Shown piece after piece: positions 9,909 through 39,112 of a DNA stretch of 44,295 nucleotides (within the stretch, counting starts at the first letter, position 1; each line of letters opens with the position of its first letter). Both the position numbers and the translations under genes were made by a program. The notes beneath the pieces were generated by a model. That model had not been told where the DNA came from, did no database searches, and saw nothing but the letters and a program-made list of their open reading frames with translations. This stretch comes from Escherichia phage GeorgBuechner, in the sequence record MZ501070; one strand, 5' to 3'.

Positions 9909-10634
9909 ATGGGTTATCAACTTCCTAACGGGTCCAGCGTGCAGATCGGATCCGTATTGGGTGCAGGCATCGCAGTTACGGCAGCGACCAACGCCGCGGC
10001 GTCAATCTCCGATCTTACGAAAGGCTGCGTTATTACCTGTGCGGCTTCGCATGGTCTGGTTGTTGGCGACGTTGTTATGTTCACTAAAACCCCGTGGGTC
10101 CGAGCGCTGAAACGCGCCTTTATCGTGGGTAAAGTAGCCGAGAACGACGTGACGCTGGCGCGCTTCGATACTCAAGACGTAACCAAATACCCGACCGGTG
10201 CTTTCGGCGTAGGAACACCGGGTGAGGTGGTGAAGGTGTCGAGCTTTATCGACTTCCCGTTTATCACTAACGTTGGTGTGTCGGGTGGCGACCAGCAGAC
10301 CACCACCTTCCAGCCGTTGCAGGTGAATGCCGCGATCAGTCTGAACACCACGAAAAACCCGTTGGTCCAGACCTACACTTTCACCCACGACGAAGAAGAC
10401 CCGATCCGCCCGATTCTGGAAGACCTGGACGACACACAGAAAACCACTGTGATTAAGTTCACCAACCCGGCAGCGGCAAGCGGCAAAGGTGAGATCCGCA
10501 TTTACCCGGCTAAGGTGACTTTCCAGAAGATTCCGTCCGCTGAAGTAAACAACGTGGAAACAGTACAAGCCACTCTGACCTTGCAGTCTGATATGGTTAT
10601 CTACCGTAAGGATCTGGTCGAGGAATTGTCTTGA
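9909..10634 (+). CDS. Major tail (tube) protein
   Basis: 241 aa ORF preceding tail assembly chaperones and tape measure; followed by terminator. Confidence 0.75.
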   Translation: MGYQLPNGSSVQIGSVLGAGIAVTAATNAAASISDLTKGCVITCAASHGLVVGDVVMFTKTPWVRALKRAFIVGKVAENDVTLARFDTQDVTKYPTGAFGVGTPGEVVKVSSFIDFPFITNVGVSGGDQQTTTFQPLQVNAAISLNTTKNPLVQTYTFTHDEEDPIRPILEDLDDTQKTTVIKFTNPAAASGKGEIRIYPAKVTFQKIPSAEVNNVETVQATLTLQSDMVIYRKDLVEELS

Positions 10635-10664
10635 TTTGGTCGCTTAAATAGCGAGTGTTAATAT

Positions 10665-10688
10665 GGGGCCAGCACGGCCCCTTTTTTA
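10665..10688 (+). terminator. Rho-independent terminator after major tail gene
   Basis: GGGGCC-agcac-GGCCCC followed by TTTTTT. Confidence 0.7.
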
Positions 10689-10703
10689 TTGGAGAATACT
10701 ACA

Positions 10704-11066
10704 ATGGCTAAAGCACCACTCTTCACACTTGACCCTAAGCCAACCTTTAAGCTGCCGATTGAGATCCCGCGCCCTGGCGAGAACGAACCGGGCAAGATGA
10801 CGTTTACCGTCCGCCACCGCCCGATCGACGAATTTTCGCAAACCATGCAGGAAACTGAACGAAAGCTATCGGAATATGACGACAATGACCCGGACGGCTT
10901 TAACGTTATGGTCGAGGCCATCATGCACGTCGCAGAAGGCTGGAATCTGCCGGACGAATTTAACGCGGAGAACGTCCGCCGCCTGGTGGTCAACTATCCA
11001 CGCGCGTTCGGTGTGTTCCACACGTCGTACTATCTCGAACTGATGGGGTTGCGTGAAAAAAACTAA
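10704..11066 (+). CDS. Tail assembly chaperone (gpG-like), zero-frame product
   Basis: 120 aa from ATG 10704 with SD GGAG; acidic; ends at TAA 11064-11066 just after an A AAA AAC slippery heptamer. Confidence 0.7.
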   Translation: MAKAPLFTLDPKPTFKLPIEIPRPGENEPGKMTFTVRHRPIDEFSQTMQETERKLSEYDDNDPDGFNVMVEAIMHVAEGWNLPDEFNAENVRRLVVNYPRAFGVFHTSYYLELMGLREKN

Positions 11067-11383
11067 TTGAGGCGGCGCGACGCTTTTATGGCCCGCCGCC
11101 ACCCTCCGAAGATTTAGCCGCAAGTTTATGGGGTGCGGCCCCCGAAGATGTTTGTCCGCCTGTTGCGCTGTGGCCTGACAACGCGAAGGTAGTCGCAGTC
11201 TTCACAGATTGCTCCACGCAATGGCGCACCGGATTTGGTGGCGCATACGGCATAGACTACGGCGTGCTGGAGTGGCTATTTAAGATGCACGGTATCGAAA
11301 ACGAGCAGCGTGCGTTTAGAGATATCAAGCTAATGGAGCGAATCGCGCTTGATGAAATGGCGCAGCAGAACCCCGCACAATGA
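10704..11383 (+). CDS. Tail assembly chaperone frameshift product (gpGT-like), -1 programmed ribosomal frameshift at 11057-11063
   Basis: -1 frame is open from the slippery site A_AAA_AAC to TGA 11381-11383 (about 107 further codons, KKLIEAARRFYGPPPPSEDL...); conserved arrangement upstream of tape measure genes. Confidence 0.6.
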
Positions 11384-11384
11384 A

Positions 11385-11418
11385 GCGGGACAAAACGGGA
11401 CGTCCCGTTTTGTCCCGC
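11385..11418. repeat. 34 bp perfect palindrome GCGGGACAAAACGGGAC|GTCCCGTTTTGTCCCGC
   Basis: Read directly from sequence; an imperfect second copy lies at about 11462-11498; each is followed by a TGCATACCTAYTCA...TGCATAAACT segment. Confidence 0.8.
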
Positions 11419-11527
11419 ACCTGCAAAACTGCATACCTACTCACTCCCATTGCATAAACTCAAAACGGGACAAGCGGGACGTCCCGTTTTGTCCCGCCCT
11501 GTAAATGTGCATACCTATTCAGATTTC

Positions 11528-11702
11528 GTGCATAAACTAGGCGGGACAAAAAGCGGGACAGACAAGGGGCGGGACAAAGCGGGACAGCACCCCGTCCCCG
11601 CCAGTGCTGCCGCGGGTTTCAGCCGATCGGGACAAGCGGGACAAACCCCAGTCTTTCAGACTAGACGGGGGTCAACGGCCCCCCTCGTCTGAGACTGAAT
11701 AA
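11528..11702. repeat. Copy A of a duplicated ~175 bp non-coding element: GCGGGACA iterons plus terminal imperfect hairpin
   Basis: GCGGGACA boxes at irregular 10-16 bp spacing, then CCCAGTCTTTCAGACTAGACGGGGGTCAACGGCCCCCCTCGTCTGAGACTGAATAA; near-identical to 38938..39112. Confidence 0.8.
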
Positions 11703-11765
11703 GATTCGTTTTAAAATCGCTGATACAATGTCAATCGGCAACTGCATAAAAAAGGGGACTGCATA

Positions 11766-14408
11766 ATGGCAGATCAAGCAGCAGGCATCACGCTAAAGGT
11801 CGATGCCTCACAAGTCAGAACGGCTAATACAGCGCTGGACTCGTTCGCACAGAAGTCAGAGACTACGGAATGGAAAGCTAAAAAATTAAACGACACACTC
11901 GGCAACACGAAAAAGGTGACGGGTGATGCAGCAGGTGGGATGGGGAAGTTAGCGAACGAATCGCAACGCGCCGCCGATGGCATGACGAAACAGGAGCGAC
12001 TCGCCAACCGGTTGGGCATGTCGACCAAAAACCTGGGCTTTGCCTCGCGTAACGCCGCATTCCAGTTACAGGATATCGCGGTTACGCTTGAGATGGGGAT
12101 GCCGGTGCACCGCGTCATGCTTCAGCAGCTACCGCAGCTTACCGGCGCATTCGGCGGCCTGGGTAACACGCTGCGTTATGTTGTCGGGTCCGTCGGCCCG
12201 CTAGGACTCGGCATTGCTGCCTTGACGGCAACGCTAGGCGTAGGGGTGGCTATTACGTCCCGCGCAGAGAACCAGGTCGCAGCGCTTAACAAGACGCTTG
12301 CGCTGTCGGGTAACATTTCCGGCCTCACTGCAAACCAGATCCTGGTGCTATCCGAGAACGCCGAGCGCATGGGCGGGTCGTTCCGTAAGACGCGTGACAC
12401 AATCCAGGCACTGGCGGCGGCGGGTGTGAAAGCGGGTGCTGACTTCGGCGCGCTGGCGAAGGTTGTGAATGACTTCGCGAAGGCGTCTAATCAGCCGATC
12501 GCGGACGTGGTTGAATCCATCTCTAAATTGTCAAACGACCCAGTGGGCGGACTGCGTGCGCTGGCGGATAAGTATCATGTCGTAACCGAAGCGCAGATCC
12601 AGCAGGTGCAATCGCTTGTAAATATGGGGCGTGAAACGGACGCGGTTGCTCTGGCTAACAAAACCGCCGCGGCGTCGTTCGCCAGCATGACCAACGATGT
12701 AAAGGCCAACATGGGTACGCTTGAGCGGTCGATGAACGTCGTTACATCAGCAGCTAAATCTATGTGGGACGCCATCCTGGATGTGGGCCGCGCGCAGTCC
12801 TCGAATGAGTCCGAGATGAAAGCGCGTGAGTCCTTGCAGCGCATGACCACGGCTTACTATGCCGAGATGAGAGCGGTAAACGCTGCCGGTGGGGTGATGA
12901 CCGAAGCGCAGAAAGCGCGTATTAACATGCTTTACAGCGAACTGGTCGCACAGGAAAAGGTGGTGGCGTCGCTCACCCTGCGCAACCGTGCCGAGCGAGA
13001 CAACGCAAGTGCCGCGGACGAAGCAGCAAAGGCGAACGAGGAGGCCAACCGCACCGCCCGCGACCGCGCCGCGTTTGAGAAGGAGTACGCAACAAACGCG
13101 AAGAGGCGTGCCGACGAGATCGCCCGCCTCAATTTGCTGAATAAGCGCGGTGTTATTAACGAGAAAGAACTAGCCGAGGCGGTGAAGCAGGTCAACGAGC
13201 GCTACAAAGACCCCGCACCAAAAAAGGCGGCGGCAGTTCGAGTAGATGCCGGGCTGAAAATGCTGGAGGTCGCGCGAAGCGAACTGGCACAGCTTCGAGA
13301 ATCAGGCAAGCAGATCGAAGCCAACGCGTCGACGCAGACCCGAGCGCAACGCGCTCAATCAGCACTTAACAAGCTGATCGCAGATCATGAACAGTTAATC
13401 GCAGCAAGCAAAGAAAGAGCGCTAACGGCAGCGGAAAAGCAGCAAATTGCGGGTTTCGAGGCGGTTAAATCGGTACGCGAGCAGATCGTCGAAGAAGCCA
13501 AATTGCTGGACGAGAAAGAGAAGCAGATCAAGGCACATGCCCAGGTCGAGGCCTTCATCAAGAACCAGAACGCCGAGCTAAAAGCCACCGCGGCGGGCTA
13601 TGCGCTTTCTACTCGCGAAGCGGCTAACCTGCGCGAAGAATTGCAGCTAATTGACCGCCTTCAGCGTGTCGGTGCTAACGATACCGATATCGACAAGGCG
13701 GTGTCTAAGCTGCGTGAAGTTCAGGACGCACAGACCGGCGCTAACGCCTCGTTATGGGATGGATTCAGTCGCGGGCTTAAGGATAGCGTGGATGAAATGG
13801 GTAACGGATATACGCAGATGGCGTCTCTCACGAAATTCACATTCAGCGCTATGCAGGACACGATGAACGAGTTTTTCGAGACTGGCAAGCTGAACGCAAA
13901 GGATATGGTTAAGTCCATCCTGAGCGAATTAATCAAGCTGGCTACCTCGCAGGCGTTCAAGTCCATCGTTAGCGCTTTCGGTGGTGACGGCGGCAAAAAC
14001 GGATTGTTCGGCGCTATCTTCTCTGGCCTTACTAAGAATGCGGACGGCGGAGCGTACGCAGGAGGCAATCTCGCGGCCTATTCGGGGAAAGTGGTAAGCC
14101 AGCCTACCTTTTTCAGTTATGGCGTCCAGGCGTTCGCTAAGGGCGCAGGATTGATGGGTGAGGCCGGACCTGAAGCCATCATGCCACTGAAGCGCGGCCC
14201 GGACGGCAAACTTGGAGTTGCCGCTGCCGGAGGTGTCGGGGGAATGATTGTAACGACCAACGTTAACATGGGGACCGGTAAGACGGATACCAGTGTTAGC
14301 GGACCAGACCCGCGCACCGCTCAGGCGTTCGGAAAGCAAATCACCGAGTCGGTGAAGGCCGAGATCGTGAAGGCGACGAAACCGGGTGGTGTACTTTACA
14401 AACGATGA
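11766..14408 (+). CDS. Tail tape measure protein
   Basis: 880 aa, Ala/Gln/Glu-rich helical repeats, glycine-rich C-terminal region; SD AAGGGGA; followed by tail-tip genes. Confidence 0.9.
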   Translation: MADQAAGITLKVDASQVRTANTALDSFAQKSETTEWKAKKLNDTLGNTKKVTGDAAGGMGKLANESQRAADGMTKQERLANRLGMSTKNLGFASRNAAFQLQDIAVTLEMGMPVHRVMLQQLPQLTGAFGGLGNTLRYVVGSVGPLGLGIAALTATLGVGVAITSRAENQVAALNKTLALSGNISGLTANQILVLSENAERMGGSFRKTRDTIQALAAAGVKAGADFGALAKVVNDFAKASNQPIADVVESISKLSNDPVGGLRALADKYHVVTEAQIQQVQSLVNMGRETDAVALANKTAAASFASMTNDVKANMGTLERSMNVVTSAAKSMWDAILDVGRAQSSNESEMKARESLQRMTTAYYAEMRAVNAAGGVMTEAQKARINMLYSELVAQEKVVASLTLRNRAERDNASAADEAAKANEEANRTARDRAAFEKEYATNAKRRADEIARLNLLNKRGVINEKELAEAVKQVNERYKDPAPKKAAAVRVDAGLKMLEVARSELAQLRESGKQIEANASTQTRAQRAQSALNKLIADHEQLIAASKERALTAAEKQQIAGFEAVKSVREQIVEEAKLLDEKEKQIKAHAQVEAFIKNQNAELKATAAGYALSTREAANLREELQLIDRLQRVGANDTDIDKAVSKLREVQDAQTGANASLWDGFSRGLKDSVDEMGNGYTQMASLTKFTFSAMQDTMNEFFETGKLNAKDMVKSILSELIKLATSQAFKSIVSAFGGDGGKNGLFGAIFSGLTKNADGGAYAGGNLAAYSGKVVSQPTFFSYGVQAFAKGAGLMGEAGPEAIMPLKRGPDGKLGVAAAGGVGGMIVTTNVNMGTGKTDTSVSGPDPRTAQAFGKQITESVKAEIVKATKPGGVLYKR

Positions 14409-26557: not shown

Positions 26558-26881
26558 TTACGCATAAAAGTTTGGGTCGCGTGCAACGTCTACCAGGTAA
26601 AGGTTGCTTATGCGGTTGCCGTAGTGCCCTGGAGTGCGCTGGCGGCACACAACGGCGAAGCCTGGGGGGATTGTATTGCCCGTCTCAATAATCCACGCCA
26701 CGCGTGCGCCAGACAGCGTCTTGCCGTTGCATTCGATACGAGTACCGCCATCTGCAGTATTGAGGTTGCCAATTTTGCAGCCGGTGGATTTCAGGCGAAT
26801 TACGCCGGTTTTGCTGTCGTAGGTGAATAGCTGGTTAGTCATTGCGACCGAAAAGTCGATGGCTTCGAATGAAGTATTCAT
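26558..26881 (-). CDS. HNH endonuclease-like protein (HNH_3-like, possibly degenerate)
   Basis: 107 aa; SGARVAWIIETGNTIPPGFAVVCRQRTPGHYGNRISNLYL resembles the HNH_3 pattern, but the usual D-H dyad position reads C-R; SD ACGAGGA. Confidence 0.4.
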   Translation of the reverse strand: MNTSFEAIDFSVAMTNQLFTYDSKTGVIRLKSTGCKIGNLNTADGGTRIECNGKTLSGARVAWIIETGNTIPPGFAVVCRQRTPGHYGNRISNLYLVDVARDPNFYA

Positions 26882-27588
26882 TTTAAATTTTCCTCGTTAA
26901 CCGCTATCGCGAAGCCGCGCGGAGTGAGCGACCGGATTAATTTTGTGCGGGCTGATTTGCCTCCGAGGCGACTATACTGCTTCGAGTACCCTTTTTCAAC
27001 GAAAACAGGTCTCTTCTCGGGCATACGGAAGCCGTTGCCGGTCCATAAGCAGGTCAGCTTCGGATATGAGTCGCGGGCGTTGATGTATTCAGGGAACAAC
27101 GGATGTACGTCATCCTCCGGCAGATATCCCCCATACTCCCACGGGTCGAACGAGTGATCCGGCTTTCGCCACTGGGTGGAAAGCACACTGCGCGGATTCT
27201 CAATCATATATGGCACTTCGAAGAAGTCACCCAGGTAAGCGGCGATCTTCGCGGTGCGCACCGCCTTAAGCTGAAAGGCTGGGTCTTTTGCACGCTTGCG
27301 TGGGAAAGCTGGCGCACCGCTAACCGCCAGATCCGTACACGGCGGGAACGCATAAATGATATCCGGCGTACCGAAATCGCCATTCATCGCGCGGTCCACG
27401 AAGTCCAGGTCGATAAACACATTACGATAGCGAATGCCGCGACCATAGATCCGGTAGTCCAGATAAGACCCGTGATCGGCTTCGGAGTAGTTGAAGCAGT
27501 AGCACGTATGCCCCATCTCGGCGGCACGCTCAATCATCAAGCCGCTGCCGTCAAACAATGACCAGATTGTCATTTTAGCAATAGTCAT
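26878..27588 (-). CDS. Short C5-cytosine DNA methyltransferase-like protein
   Basis: 236 aa; motif I-like LFDGSG, motif IV-like FPPCTDLAVSG (catalytic PC), motif VI-like MIENP; no obvious large target-recognition domain. Confidence 0.55.
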   Translation of the reverse strand: MTIAKMTIWSLFDGSGLMIERAAEMGHTCYCFNYSEADHGSYLDYRIYGRGIRYRNVFIDLDFVDRAMNGDFGTPDIIYAFPPCTDLAVSGAPAFPRKRAKDPAFQLKAVRTAKIAAYLGDFFEVPYMIENPRSVLSTQWRKPDHSFDPWEYGGYLPEDDVHPLFPEYINARDSYPKLTCLWTGNGFRMPEKRPVFVEKGYSKQYSRLGGKSARTKLIRSLTPRGFAIAVNEENLK

Positions 27589-38937: not shown

Positions 38938-39112
38938 GTGCATAAAGTAAGCGGGACAAAAAGCGGGACAAACAAGGGGCGGGACAAAGCGGGACAGCAC
39001 CCCCGTCCCGCCCCGGATGGCGCGGCTTCCAGAGGAGCGGGACAGGCGGGACAAACCCCAGTCTTTCAGACTAGACGGGGGTCAATGGCCCCCCTCGTCT
39101 GAGACTGAATAA
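38938..39112. repeat. Copy B of the duplicated ~175 bp GCGGGACA-iteron plus hairpin element
   Basis: Near-identical to 11528..11702 with a diverged central ~40 bp; ends in the same imperfect hairpin. Confidence 0.8.

What the first reader, a model, noticed from the sequence alone, without database searches (positions are those of the whole stretch)
11050..11383. Programmed -1 ribosomal frameshift in the tail assembly chaperone gene
The chaperone ORF ends at TAA 11064-11066 directly after the slippery heptamer A AAA AAC (11057-11063). The -1 frame is open from there for about 107 codons to TGA 11381-11383, and no independent start codon serves that extension. This matches the conserved G/GT frameshift upstream of tape measure genes and was missed by the ORF track.
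Basis: partly seen in the sequence, partly recalled or inferred. Interest (0 to 1): 0.45.

Follow-up and report, generated by a model that had tools for sequence, protein, structure and literature searches.

The report
Tail chaperone G/GT -1 frameshift site
This is the ordinary, well-known ribosomal frameshift by which long-tailed phages make a short and a long tail-assembly chaperone from one gene. It is real here, but public records of this phage genus (Dhillonvirus) mostly leave it unannotated.

Summary
The window is a Dhillonvirus-like E. coli siphophage. The chaperone gene G (10704-11066, Pfam Phage_TAC_4) ends REKN-TAA. The -1 frame has a TGA at 11054-11056, so the two frames overlap by only 10 nt (11057-11066), and those 10 nt are A_AAA_AAC plus the stop.

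The -1 extension (11063-11383, 106 codons) matches Pfam DUF1799. It varies mainly at third codon positions, as real coding sequence does. It has no ATG, GTG or TTG until codon 68. It is 36% identical to the extension annotated as a "frameshift product" in the T1-like phage U136B.

The heptamer sits in phase at the end of G in every relative examined but two. It is A_AAA_AAC in most clades and G_GGA_AAC in three others. A hairpin lies 7 nt downstream (11071-11100). It coincides with the least variable synonymous sites of the whole G-T region, and its stem shows compensatory changes between clades.

Best reading: a programmed -1 ribosomal frameshift gives a 14.0 kDa G and a minor 25.8 kDa GT, working like lambda G/GT. 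The proteins show no detectable sequence relation to lambda G and T. The kind is known, and the same frameshift is already recognised in T1-like relatives, so interest is low. The practical value is correcting annotation in about 150 Dhillonvirus genomes.

The parts
9909..10634 (+). Major tail tube protein gene. It gives the upstream context and is the presumed binding partner of the T domain.
   Evidence: Pfam Phage_tail_3 PF08813, E 1.7e-32. PHROG 584 major tail protein, E 1e-73.
10665..10681 (+). Terminator-like GC hairpin followed by T6, between the tail tube gene and G. It probably lowers transcription into G.
   Evidence: Consensus scan. The CS16 and Motto records annotate terminators at the equivalent place.
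10704..11066 (+). Gene G: tail assembly (tape measure) chaperone, 120 aa, 14.0 kDa. It is the product of standard decoding. The Shine-Dalgarno GGAG lies at 10691-10694.
   Evidence: Translation. Pfam Phage_TAC_4, E 8.7e-24. Variable sites by codon position are 11/6/79. Mass.
11054..11056 (+). TGA in the -1 frame. It closes that frame immediately before the heptamer and limits the possible shift window to 10 nt.
   Evidence: Translation of the -1 frame. Overlap of 10 nt, AAAAAACTAA.
11057..11063 (+). Slippery heptamer A_AAA_AAC, with Lys AAA in the P site and Asn AAC in the A site.
   Evidence: Sequence. It is the only in-phase heptamer in the overlap. It is invariant in all Dhillonvirus loci and in T1-like and IMG/VR relatives, and is replaced by G_GGA_AAC in D14H, PseuP_222 and Fayden. 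The motif is a proven -1 frameshift site in IS1 (PMC4066793).
11064..11066 (+). 0-frame stop TAA directly abutting the heptamer. It terminates G and may act as a 'shifty stop' stimulator.
   Evidence: A stop (TAA, TGA or TAG) immediately follows the heptamer in nearly all relatives.
11071..11100 (+). Candidate stimulatory hairpin, 7 nt after the heptamer. The arms are GGCGGCG (11071-11077) and CGCCGCC (11094-11100), with a 16-nt loop.
   Evidence: Minimum-free-energy fold. A hairpin sits at the same offset in U136B, T1 and Motto. Cross-clade covariation. Synonymous-site variability is at its minimum here: 2 of 13 against 149 of 213, p = 1.3e-4. All 14 stem bases are invariant in the Dhillonvirus sequences.
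11063..11383 (+). T extension: 106 codons in the -1 frame (CTA 11063 to TGA 11381-11383). It is translated only as the C-terminal part of GT.
   Evidence: Pfam DUF1799, E 3.9e-21. Variable sites by codon position are 26/12/72. Codon differences are 77% synonymous in this frame against 12% and 8% in the other two. 36% identity to the U136B frameshift extension.
10704..11383 (+). GT fusion coding region, join(10704..11063, 11063..11383). It gives 226 aa, 25.8 kDa, with the junction ...LREKN|LIEAARR...
   Evidence: The fusion matches PHROG 17368 over its whole length. Mass.
11766..14408 (+). Tape measure protein gene. It gives the downstream context and is the presumed client of G and GT.
   Evidence: Pfam TMP_2, E 1e-43, and Tape_meas_lam_C, E 5e-14. 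PHROG 24, E 5e-180.

Best explanation
Two chaperones are made from one mRNA by a programmed -1 ribosomal frameshift.

Most ribosomes translating G (10704->) terminate at TAA 11064-11066 and release the 120-aa chaperone G. A minority slip while tRNA-Lys sits on AAA (11058-60) and tRNA-Asn on AAC (11061-63). Both tRNAs re-pair one base upstream, on AAA (11057-59) and AAA (11060-62). Translation resumes at CTA 11063 in the -1 frame and runs to TGA 11381-11383. The result is the 226-aa fusion GT.

The slip is probably promoted by a GC-rich hairpin whose base lies 7 nt downstream (11071-11100). The stop codon that abuts the heptamer may add to this.

By analogy with lambda G/GT, many G molecules and a few GT molecules coat the tape measure protein. 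The T domain recruits the tail tube protein. Neither chaperone ends up in the virion.

Shown here: the anatomy, coding in the -1 frame, family membership, conservation of the site, and a sequence constraint on the hairpin region. Inferred: that the shift occurs, its efficiency, and the roles of G and T.
For: 1. Geometry. The frames overlap by 10 nt, and those 10 nt are the heptamer plus the stop. The background rate of in-phase heptamers is about 0.2% per codon.

2. The extension is a real, selected coding sequence.
- It matches DUF1799 at E 4e-21.
- Variation is concentrated at third positions, 26/12/72.
- Codon differences are 77% synonymous in the -1 frame, against 12% and 8% in the other frames.
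- Amino-acid conservation starts at residue 1 after the junction: L1 and Y9 are invariant across clades.

3. No independent start. The first ATG, GTG or TTG is 67 codons in (GTG 11264). There is no Shine-Dalgarno sequence before the junction.

4. Conservation of the slip site.
- 79 of 80 IMG/VR relatives, at 42-99% identity, have AAAAAAC followed by a stop and a -1 extension. The extension is 102-106 codons in 78 of them and 39 codons in L067.
- Lytic T1, Tls-, Tempe- and Braunvirinae-type phages have the same arrangement.
- Three distant phages have G_GGA_AAC at the same place.
- The length of the A run varies (7, 6 or 3) while the X_XXY_YYZ phase is kept.

5. Homologues are already annotated or described as frameshifted: the U136B joined CDS, Stevie (PMC4319613) and Skenny (PMC6763657).

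6. The motif works in E. coli. A_AAA_AAC and G_GGA_AAC are low-efficiency -1 motifs there, yet IS elements use them, and IS1 is a proven case (PMC4066793). Low efficiency fits the roughly 30:1 ratio of G to GT in lambda (PMC5009743).

7. The hairpin.
- It has a 7-nt spacer in Dhillonvirus and in T1-like phages.
- The stem is 71% paired across clades, against 32-58% when the partner is slid. The covariation score is 0.358 against 0.261 or less.
- The lowest synonymous variability of the whole G-T region falls at 11057-11098.
Against: - No protein or ribosome data exist. The shift is inferred entirely from sequence.
- The window's own hairpin is not more stable than shuffled sequence (z = -0.23; z = -1.07).
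- The stem arms are built from conserved Ala and Pro codons, so part of the apparent structural conservation may reflect protein constraint.
- The hairpin is weak or absent in the L037 clade, in TR3 and in 12397IV.
- A_AAA_AAC is a poor slippery site in E. coli (PMC4066793).
- Webervirus relatives such as Penguinator lack a canonical heptamer and have only A_AAA_G. The signal is therefore not universal in the family.
- HK578 and SO-1 curators chose to annotate T as a separate gene.
Confidence: 0.9

Rival explanations
1. The frameshift is ribosomal but uses a single tRNA at a 'shifty stop'. With AAC in the P site and TAA waiting in the A site for a release factor, tRNA-Asn alone slips back one base. 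The protein product is identical to that of tandem slippage.
For: A stop codon (TAA, TGA or TAG) directly abuts the heptamer in almost every clade. The first T-domain codon is CTA or CTG in all of them, which creates the 0-frame stop. CTA is the rarest Leu codon in E. coli (established knowledge), so selection seems to act on the stop rather than on codon preference. Lambda's slip site, by contrast, lies 15 nt before its stop.
Against: The full heptamer is conserved, not just a tetramer, which argues that the upstream Lys codon matters. In PseuP_222 one sense codon separates the heptamer from the stop. tRNA-Asn re-pairing on AAA is near-cognate only.
Confidence: 0.15
2. Transcriptional slippage. 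RNA polymerase adds one extra A in the A7 run (11056-11062), and the resulting mRNAs encode G fused to T in frame, with the junction ...REKK-LIEAAR...
For: The window has seven consecutive A residues. An insertion of one A gives the same downstream frame. Slippage on A or T runs is known in bacteria (PMC5009743).
Against: The run length is not conserved. It is A7 in Dhillonvirus, A6 in T1-like phages and L051, and only A3 in the G_GGA_AAC clades, while the in-phase X_XXY_YYZ pattern is always kept. Efficient slippage by E. coli RNA polymerase usually needs longer runs (established knowledge). A conserved downstream hairpin and its spacer are features of ribosomal signals.
Confidence: 0.05
3. 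T is a separate gene, translated on its own from ATT 11066 (as the HK578 and SO-1 records annotate gp16) or by termination-reinitiation. It would give a free 105-aa protein and no fusion.
For: HK578 gp16 and SO-1 gp15/gp16 are deposited as adjacent CDSs that share one base, which implies an ATT start. ATT is present in all Dhillonvirus sequences.
Against: There is no Shine-Dalgarno sequence upstream: the preceding bases are GCGTGAAAAAAACTA. The equivalent codon is AAA, ATA, AGG, GTC or AAG in other clades, so no start is conserved, whereas the heptamer is. Homologues are annotated as fusions, and PHROG 17368 is a full-length fusion family. In lambda, T acts as part of GT (PMC5009743).
Confidence: 0.04
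4. Artefact or pseudogene: a single G-T gene broken by a sequencing error or a recent 1-nt indel in a homopolymer.
For: Homopolymer runs are prone to indel errors.
Against: The identical arrangement appears in 34 independently sequenced Dhillonvirus loci and in more than 80 distant relatives, with three different stop codons. Both parts are under purifying selection in their own frames.
Confidence: 0.01

Closest known systems
Phage lambda G/GT tail assembly chaperones (Levin, Hendrix & Casjens 1993; Xu, Hendrix & Duda 2004, 2013, 2014)
   Same: The gene order is tail tube, then G, then T, then tape measure. T lies in the -1 frame and has no start of its own. An X_XXY_YYZ heptamer sits near the end of G. 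The expected output is low-level GT alongside abundant G (PMC5009743).
   Different: There is no detectable sequence relationship. Lambda G and T are PF06894 and PF06223; here the families are PF08748 and PF08809. hhalign probabilities are 0.3% and 1.8%. Lambda uses G_GGA_AAG placed 15 nt before the G stop. Here the heptamer is A_AAA_AAC, directly abutting the stop, with a candidate hairpin 7 nt downstream.
Tape measure chaperone frameshift of T1-like phages (Drexlerviridae: U136B, Stevie, Skenny, T1, Motto)
   Same: The proteins are homologous: G is 38-43% identical and T is 36% identical. The Pfam pair is the same. The signal A_AAA_AAC plus TAA is identical, and a hairpin lies 6-7 nt downstream. 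The frameshift is already annotated or described for these phages (PMC4319613; PMC6763657).
   Different: They belong to a different genus and family. The stem sequence differs: GGCGGTTT/AAACCGCC against GGCGGCG/CGCCGCC. In T1-like phages the tape measure gene follows T within about 20-40 nt, whereas here a 382-nt repeat region intervenes. Dhillonvirus records do not annotate the fusion.
IS1 insA-insB' -1 frameshift (A_AAA_AAC)
   Same: It has the same low-efficiency heptamer, used in E. coli to make a small amount of a fusion protein (PMC4066793).
   Different: It is a transposase, not a chaperone. No stimulator has been established for IS1 (PMC4066793), whereas here a hairpin and an adjacent stop are candidates.

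Membership tests
G/GT-type tail assembly chaperone frameshift (criteria of Xu, Hendrix & Duda 2004) | Two ORFs lie between the major tail gene and the tape measure gene. | tested here: met
   Tail tube 9909-10634, G 10704-11066, T to 11383, tape measure 11766-14408.
G/GT-type tail assembly chaperone frameshift (criteria of Xu, Hendrix & Duda 2004) | The second ORF overlaps the end of the first in another frame and lacks its own start and ribosome-binding site. | tested here: met
   The second ORF is in the -1 frame with a 10-nt overlap. The first ATG, GTG or TTG is at codon 68, and there is no Shine-Dalgarno sequence.
G/GT-type tail assembly chaperone frameshift (criteria of Xu, Hendrix & Duda 2004) | A slippery sequence lies in phase within the overlap. 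| tested here: met
   A_AAA_AAC at 11057-11063 is the only possible in-phase position.
G/GT-type tail assembly chaperone frameshift (criteria of Xu, Hendrix & Duda 2004) | The arrangement is conserved in diverged relatives. | tested here: met
   34 Dhillonvirus loci, 79 of 80 IMG/VR relatives, T1-like phages, and Pseudomonas and Vibrio phages with G_GGA_AAC.
G/GT-type tail assembly chaperone frameshift (criteria of Xu, Hendrix & Duda 2004) | A fusion protein is made at a low, fixed ratio. Both products are needed for tail assembly and are absent from virions. | not testable with these tools
   This needs expression, mass spectrometry and genetics.
Pfam PF08748 Phage_TAC_4 | The score exceeds the gathering threshold over the full domain. 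| tested here: met
   84.5 bits against 21.1; residues 1-120 on profile positions 1-124 of 124.
Pfam PF08809 DUF1799 (T domain of this chaperone family) | The score exceeds the gathering threshold. | tested here: met
   75.5 bits against 26; profile positions 1-80 of 80. The same family is found in the U136B and D14H extensions.
Lambda gpG (PF06894) and gpT (PF06223) protein families | Sequence homology to lambda G and T. | tested here: not met
   No Pfam hit at E <= 1. hhalign probability is 0.3% for G and 1.8% for T. The element works like lambda G/GT but is not a member of those protein families.
Structured -1 frameshift cassette (heptamer, 5-9 nt spacer, 3' stem-loop) | A downstream structure at the correct spacing, supported by covariation or sequence constraint. 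| tested here: inconclusive
   For: a 7-nt spacer; covariation 0.358 against 0.261 or less in slid controls; synonymous-site minimum, p = 1.3e-4. Against: the window's fold z-score is -0.23, and the structure is weak in some clades. No Rfam family matches.

The most novel reading that the evidence does not exclude
The TAC_4/DUF1799 chaperone family may use a distinct design of -1 frameshift cassette. It would combine a weak heptamer (A_AAA_AAC or G_GGA_AAC) that always abuts the 0-frame stop (a 'shifty stop') with, in some clades, a hairpin 7 nt downstream. In that design the G:GT ratio would depend on release-factor kinetics as well as on RNA structure. The ratio could then respond to the host's translational state.
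Probability: 0.25. Interest if true: 0.35.

Novelty: new member of a known kind. Interest (0 to 1): 0.2.

Why it matters
The main value is for annotation. About 150 deposited Dhillonvirus genomes carry this cassette. None of the nine records inspected feature by feature has a joined CDS, and none of the roughly 100 further records seen only as lists of feature names shows a second chaperone entry over the T region. In these records the T region is left empty, is cut into spurious small "hypothetical proteins", or is called a separate ATT-initiated gene. A correct GT product is needed for proteomics, for tail-assembly studies and for engineering these phages, which are widely used as E. coli therapy and model phages.

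A smaller point concerns mechanism. The stop codon invariably abuts a weak heptamer, and the hairpin lies in a trough of synonymous variation. Together these give a compact, easily mutated system for testing how stops and structures combine to set a low frameshift ratio.

Tried and rejected
- Protein database search. The search for homologous proteins with the fusion returned only two G-only proteins of 125 aa. It gave no information on deposited fusions and no alignment for structure prediction, so no structure was predicted.
- PDB sequence search. No relative was found; the best E-value was 0.86.
- NCBIfam. No family matched.
- Rfam. Only chance-level matches far below the gathering scores.
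- Remote homology to lambda G and T by hhalign: none.
- Upstream Shine-Dalgarno-like stimulator. The GGGG at 11045-11048 varies at 11048 within the genus (G, A or C) and is absent in other clades, so I rejected it.
- Thermodynamic significance of the window's hairpin alone. It is not significant (z = -0.23 and -1.07). The case for the hairpin rests on position, covariation and synonymous-site suppression.
- A biased first test. My first synonymous-site test selected loci with a regular expression that covered part of the tested region. I repeated it with BLAST-selected loci. That run was inflated by N characters in L111.
- Literature search. Searches for a described frameshift in Dhillonvirus or HK578 found nothing relevant.
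- Count of AAAAAAC in the window. It is not enriched.

Full report
**1. What is in the sequence**

The region reads ...CTG ATG GGG TTG CGT GAA AAA AAC TAA TTG AGG.... The chaperone ORF starts at ATG 10704, nine bases after a GGAG at 10691-10694. It encodes 120 aa ending REKN and stops at TAA 11064-11066.

In the -1 frame there is a TGA at 11054-11056. After it the frame is open to TGA 11381-11383. The two frames can therefore be joined only within 11057-11066, ten bases that read AAAAAAC TAA. This stretch holds a single in-phase position for an X_XXY_YYZ heptamer, and A_AAA_AAC occupies it.

Across the long ORFs of the window, in-phase heptamers occur at 27 of 14,239 codon positions. This is the only ORF end in the window where such a heptamer lies in the overlap and the downstream -1 ORF has no start codon of its own. 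The bare word AAAAAAC is not enriched: 5 copies against 7.5 expected. The argument rests on placement, not frequency.

The first ATG, GTG or TTG in the extension is GTG 11264, 67 codons in. That is why no ORF of 40 aa or more is listed in that frame.

**2. What the two parts are**

The window is a Dhillonvirus-like E. coli siphophage. The stretch 10600-11800 is 95-96% identical to Teewinot, BF9, Pubbukkers and others.

- G matches Pfam Phage_TAC_4 (PF08748, E 8.7e-24).
- The -1 extension matches Pfam DUF1799 (PF08809, E 3.9e-21).
- Upstream is a tail tube gene (PF08813). Downstream is a tape measure gene (PF06791 and PF09718).
Full-length fusions of this type therefore already exist among annotated phage proteins.
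- The extension is 36% identical (E 7e-20) over its whole length to the -1 extension of the Tlsvirus U136B. That record carries a joined CDS noted as "tape measure chaperone protein frameshift product".

**3. Is the extension really translated in the -1 frame?**

I compared 26 distinct Dhillonvirus sequences. Variable sites by codon position are 11/6/79 in G and 26/12/72 in the extension read in the -1 frame. In the first set of 22 distinct sequences, pairwise codon differences were 77% synonymous in the -1 frame, against 12% and 8% in the other two frames.

Across nine diverged clades the extension has invariant motifs (TQWR, G..G.DY..L, D...ME..AL). Conservation begins at the very first residue after the junction: L1 and Y9 are invariant. 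This fits translation that enters from the junction rather than from an internal start.

**4. Conservation of the signal**

- All 34 Dhillonvirus loci retrieved carry the same GAAAAAAACTAA.
- Of 80 IMG/VR relatives of G at 42-99% identity, 79 have AAAAAAC followed directly by TAA, TGA or TAG and a -1 extension, which is 102-106 codons long in 78 of them and 39 codons in L067. The exception, L070, has AAAAAAT TAG and no extension.
- T1, U136B, Motto, TR3 and 12397IV have A_AAA_AAC TAA.
- Pseudomonas phage D14H and Vibrio phage Fayden have G_GGA_AAC followed by a stop. PseuP_222 has G_GGA_AAC, one sense codon, then a stop.
- The A run is 7, 6 or 3 bases long in different clades, but the in-phase heptamer pattern is always kept. 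This favours tandem tRNA slippage over RNA polymerase slippage.
- No start codon is conserved at the junction. The codon is ATT, AAA, ATA, AGG, GTC or AAG, depending on clade. This argues against independent initiation of T, which is how HK578 and SO-1 annotate gp16, implying an ATT start at the last base of the G stop.
- The Webervirus phage Penguinator lacks a canonical heptamer and has only A_AAA_G. The signal is therefore not universal in the family.

**5. Stimulators**

*The fold.* The minimum-free-energy fold of the 84 nt from the heptamer onward places a stem GGCGGCG (11071-11077) against CGCCGCC (11094-11100), exactly 7 nt after the heptamer. U136B, T1 and Motto have a stem at the same offset with a different sequence, GGCGGTTT against AAACCGCC. 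Their z-scores are -3.1 to -4.0 against mononucleotide shuffles, and -2.3 for U136B against dinucleotide shuffles. The window's own hairpin is not more stable than shuffled GC-rich sequence (z = -0.23 and -1.07).

*Covariation.* I aligned 14 sequences from about six clades without gaps.
- RNAalifold kept a four-pair helix at columns 15-18 and 41-44, with compensatory changes at two pairs.
- For the seven-pair stem, 71% of cells pair, against 32-58% when the 3' partner is slid by 1-3 columns.
- The covariation score is 0.358, against 0.261 or less in the slid controls.

*Synonymous-site constraint.* Within Dhillonvirus, only 2 of 13 third-codon positions vary in 11064-11101, against 149 of 213 elsewhere in G and T (Fisher p = 1.3e-4). 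The sliding-window minimum for the whole region is 11057-11098. All 14 stem bases, the spacer and the heptamer are invariant. The few changes fall in the loop (11078, 11080) or just outside the stem (11101).

*Caveats.* The arms are made of conserved Ala and Pro codons. The structure is weak in the L037 clade, TR3 and 12397IV. I rate the hairpin a probable stimulator, at about 0.55-0.6, but not a proven one.

*Upstream signal.* An upstream Shine-Dalgarno-like sequence is not conserved.

*The abutting stop.* The stop codon that abuts the heptamer in nearly all clades is a second candidate stimulator. It is kept through use of CTA or CTG as the first T-domain codon, and CTA is a rare codon in E. 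coli (established knowledge).

**6. Mechanism and function**

According to a systematic study in E. coli, A_AAA_AAC and G_GGA_AAC are both low-efficiency -1 motifs. A_AAA_AAC gives more than 0.1% frameshifting without stimulators. Both are nevertheless used by IS elements, and IS1 is a proven case (PMC4066793). A weak site with modest stimulators suits a system that needs little of the long product. In lambda the G:GT ratio is about 30:1 and is critical for tail assembly (PMC5009743).

The predicted products are G (120 aa, 13,975 Da) and GT (226 aa, 25,781 Da), with the junction ...LREKN-LIEAARR....

The roles are inferred by analogy with lambda and were not tested here. G and the G part of GT would bind the tape measure protein. 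T would recruit the tail tube protein. Both chaperones would leave the finished tail (PMC5009743).

**7. Comparison with known systems**

In function and position this is the lambda-type G/GT frameshift. It is not a member of the lambda protein families.
- Lambda G and T are PF06894 and PF06223.
- Neither family hits the window's proteins.
- Profile comparison gives probabilities of 0.3% and 1.8%.
- Lambda's G_GGA_AAG lies 15 nt before its stop, whereas here the stop abuts the heptamer.

The closest known case is the homologous chaperone pair of T1-like phages. Its conserved frameshift has been noted in genome announcements (Stevie, PMC4319613; Skenny, PMC6763657) and is annotated in U136B.

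For Dhillonvirus I found no record that annotates the fusion.
- Nine records were inspected in detail: UDS3lw, EE09, SECphi18, McMelon, phiEco273, SM_S22, Pandora71, mckay and CS16. All show only G, sometimes followed by small hypothetical ORFs.
- HK578 and SO-1 call T a separate gene.
- The feature lists of about 100 further records show "none" or "hypothetical protein" over the T region.
- Literature searches found no description.

**8. Verdict**

This is a new, unannotated member of a well-known kind. Modest points of interest are the stop-abutting weak heptamer and the constrained hairpin. Confidence that GT is made by a -1 ribosomal frameshift is 0.9. Interest is 0.2.

Noticed in passing
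window 11383-11765 and 38940-39110: A 382-nt non-coding, repeat-rich region separates the T stop from the tape measure start. CGGGACAA occurs 13 times in the window against 1.7 expected: 8 copies at 11386-11644 and 4 at 38952-39054. A perfect 34-nt palindrome (11385-11418) directly follows the T stop. The 3' half (about 11536-11700) is duplicated almost verbatim at 38940-39110. Both copies end in a GC hairpin and then a promoter-like CTGAGA-17-TAAAAT. The motif is present in all Dhillonvirus loci. The SO-1 record labels these stretches repeat 'region A' and 'region B', and HK578 annotates a terminator here. It is probably a regulator-binding and terminator-promoter module. The small 'hypothetical' ORFs annotated here in relatives lie in differing frames and are probably spurious.
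   Followed up: partly
window 10665-10681: A terminator-like hairpin, GGGGCC-AGCAC-GGCCCC followed by T6, lies between the tail tube gene and G. It may lower expression of G, GT and the tape measure protein relative to the tube protein.
   Followed up: no
L112 (HK578) 1796-2110; L110 (SO-1) 700-1014: The genus reference genomes annotate the T domain as an independent CDS that starts at the last base of G's stop codon, implying an ATT start. RefSeq SECphi18 labels G 'major tail protein' and adds a minus-strand ORF over the T region. These look like annotation errors that have spread to other records.
   Followed up: partly
L121 (Klebsiella phage Penguinator, Webervirus) 1200-1230: A homologous G/T pair lacks the canonical heptamer. 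G ends ...GCA AAA GTC TAA, which leaves only an A_AAA_G tetramer-type site. This may represent a different slip mechanism within the same protein family.
   Followed up: no
L070 (IMGVR_UViG_3300010279_000018) about 1500-1560: This is the only one of 80 relatives in which G ends AAAAAAT TAG, the -1 frame closes after 6 codons, and unrelated AT-rich sequence follows. It may be a rearranged or chimeric contig, or a lineage that has lost T.
   Followed up: no
public records MG065648.1, OQ221563.1, PQ843332.1: Records named 'Campylobacter phage A144' and 'Acinetobacter phage NJ01' are 93-99% identical to E. coli Dhillonviruses in this region. PQ843332.1 is 88.6 kb long and matches in several places. 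These look like host mis-assignment or contamination, and a concatenated assembly.
   Followed up: no
window 26878-26890, minus strand: In-phase heptamers AAATTTA and TTTAAAA sit at the end of minus-strand ORF 26878-27588, with a 107-codon -1 ORF downstream (26558-26881). That downstream ORF has its own ATG, which overlaps the upstream stop. This looks like ordinary translational coupling rather than a frameshift.
   Followed up: no
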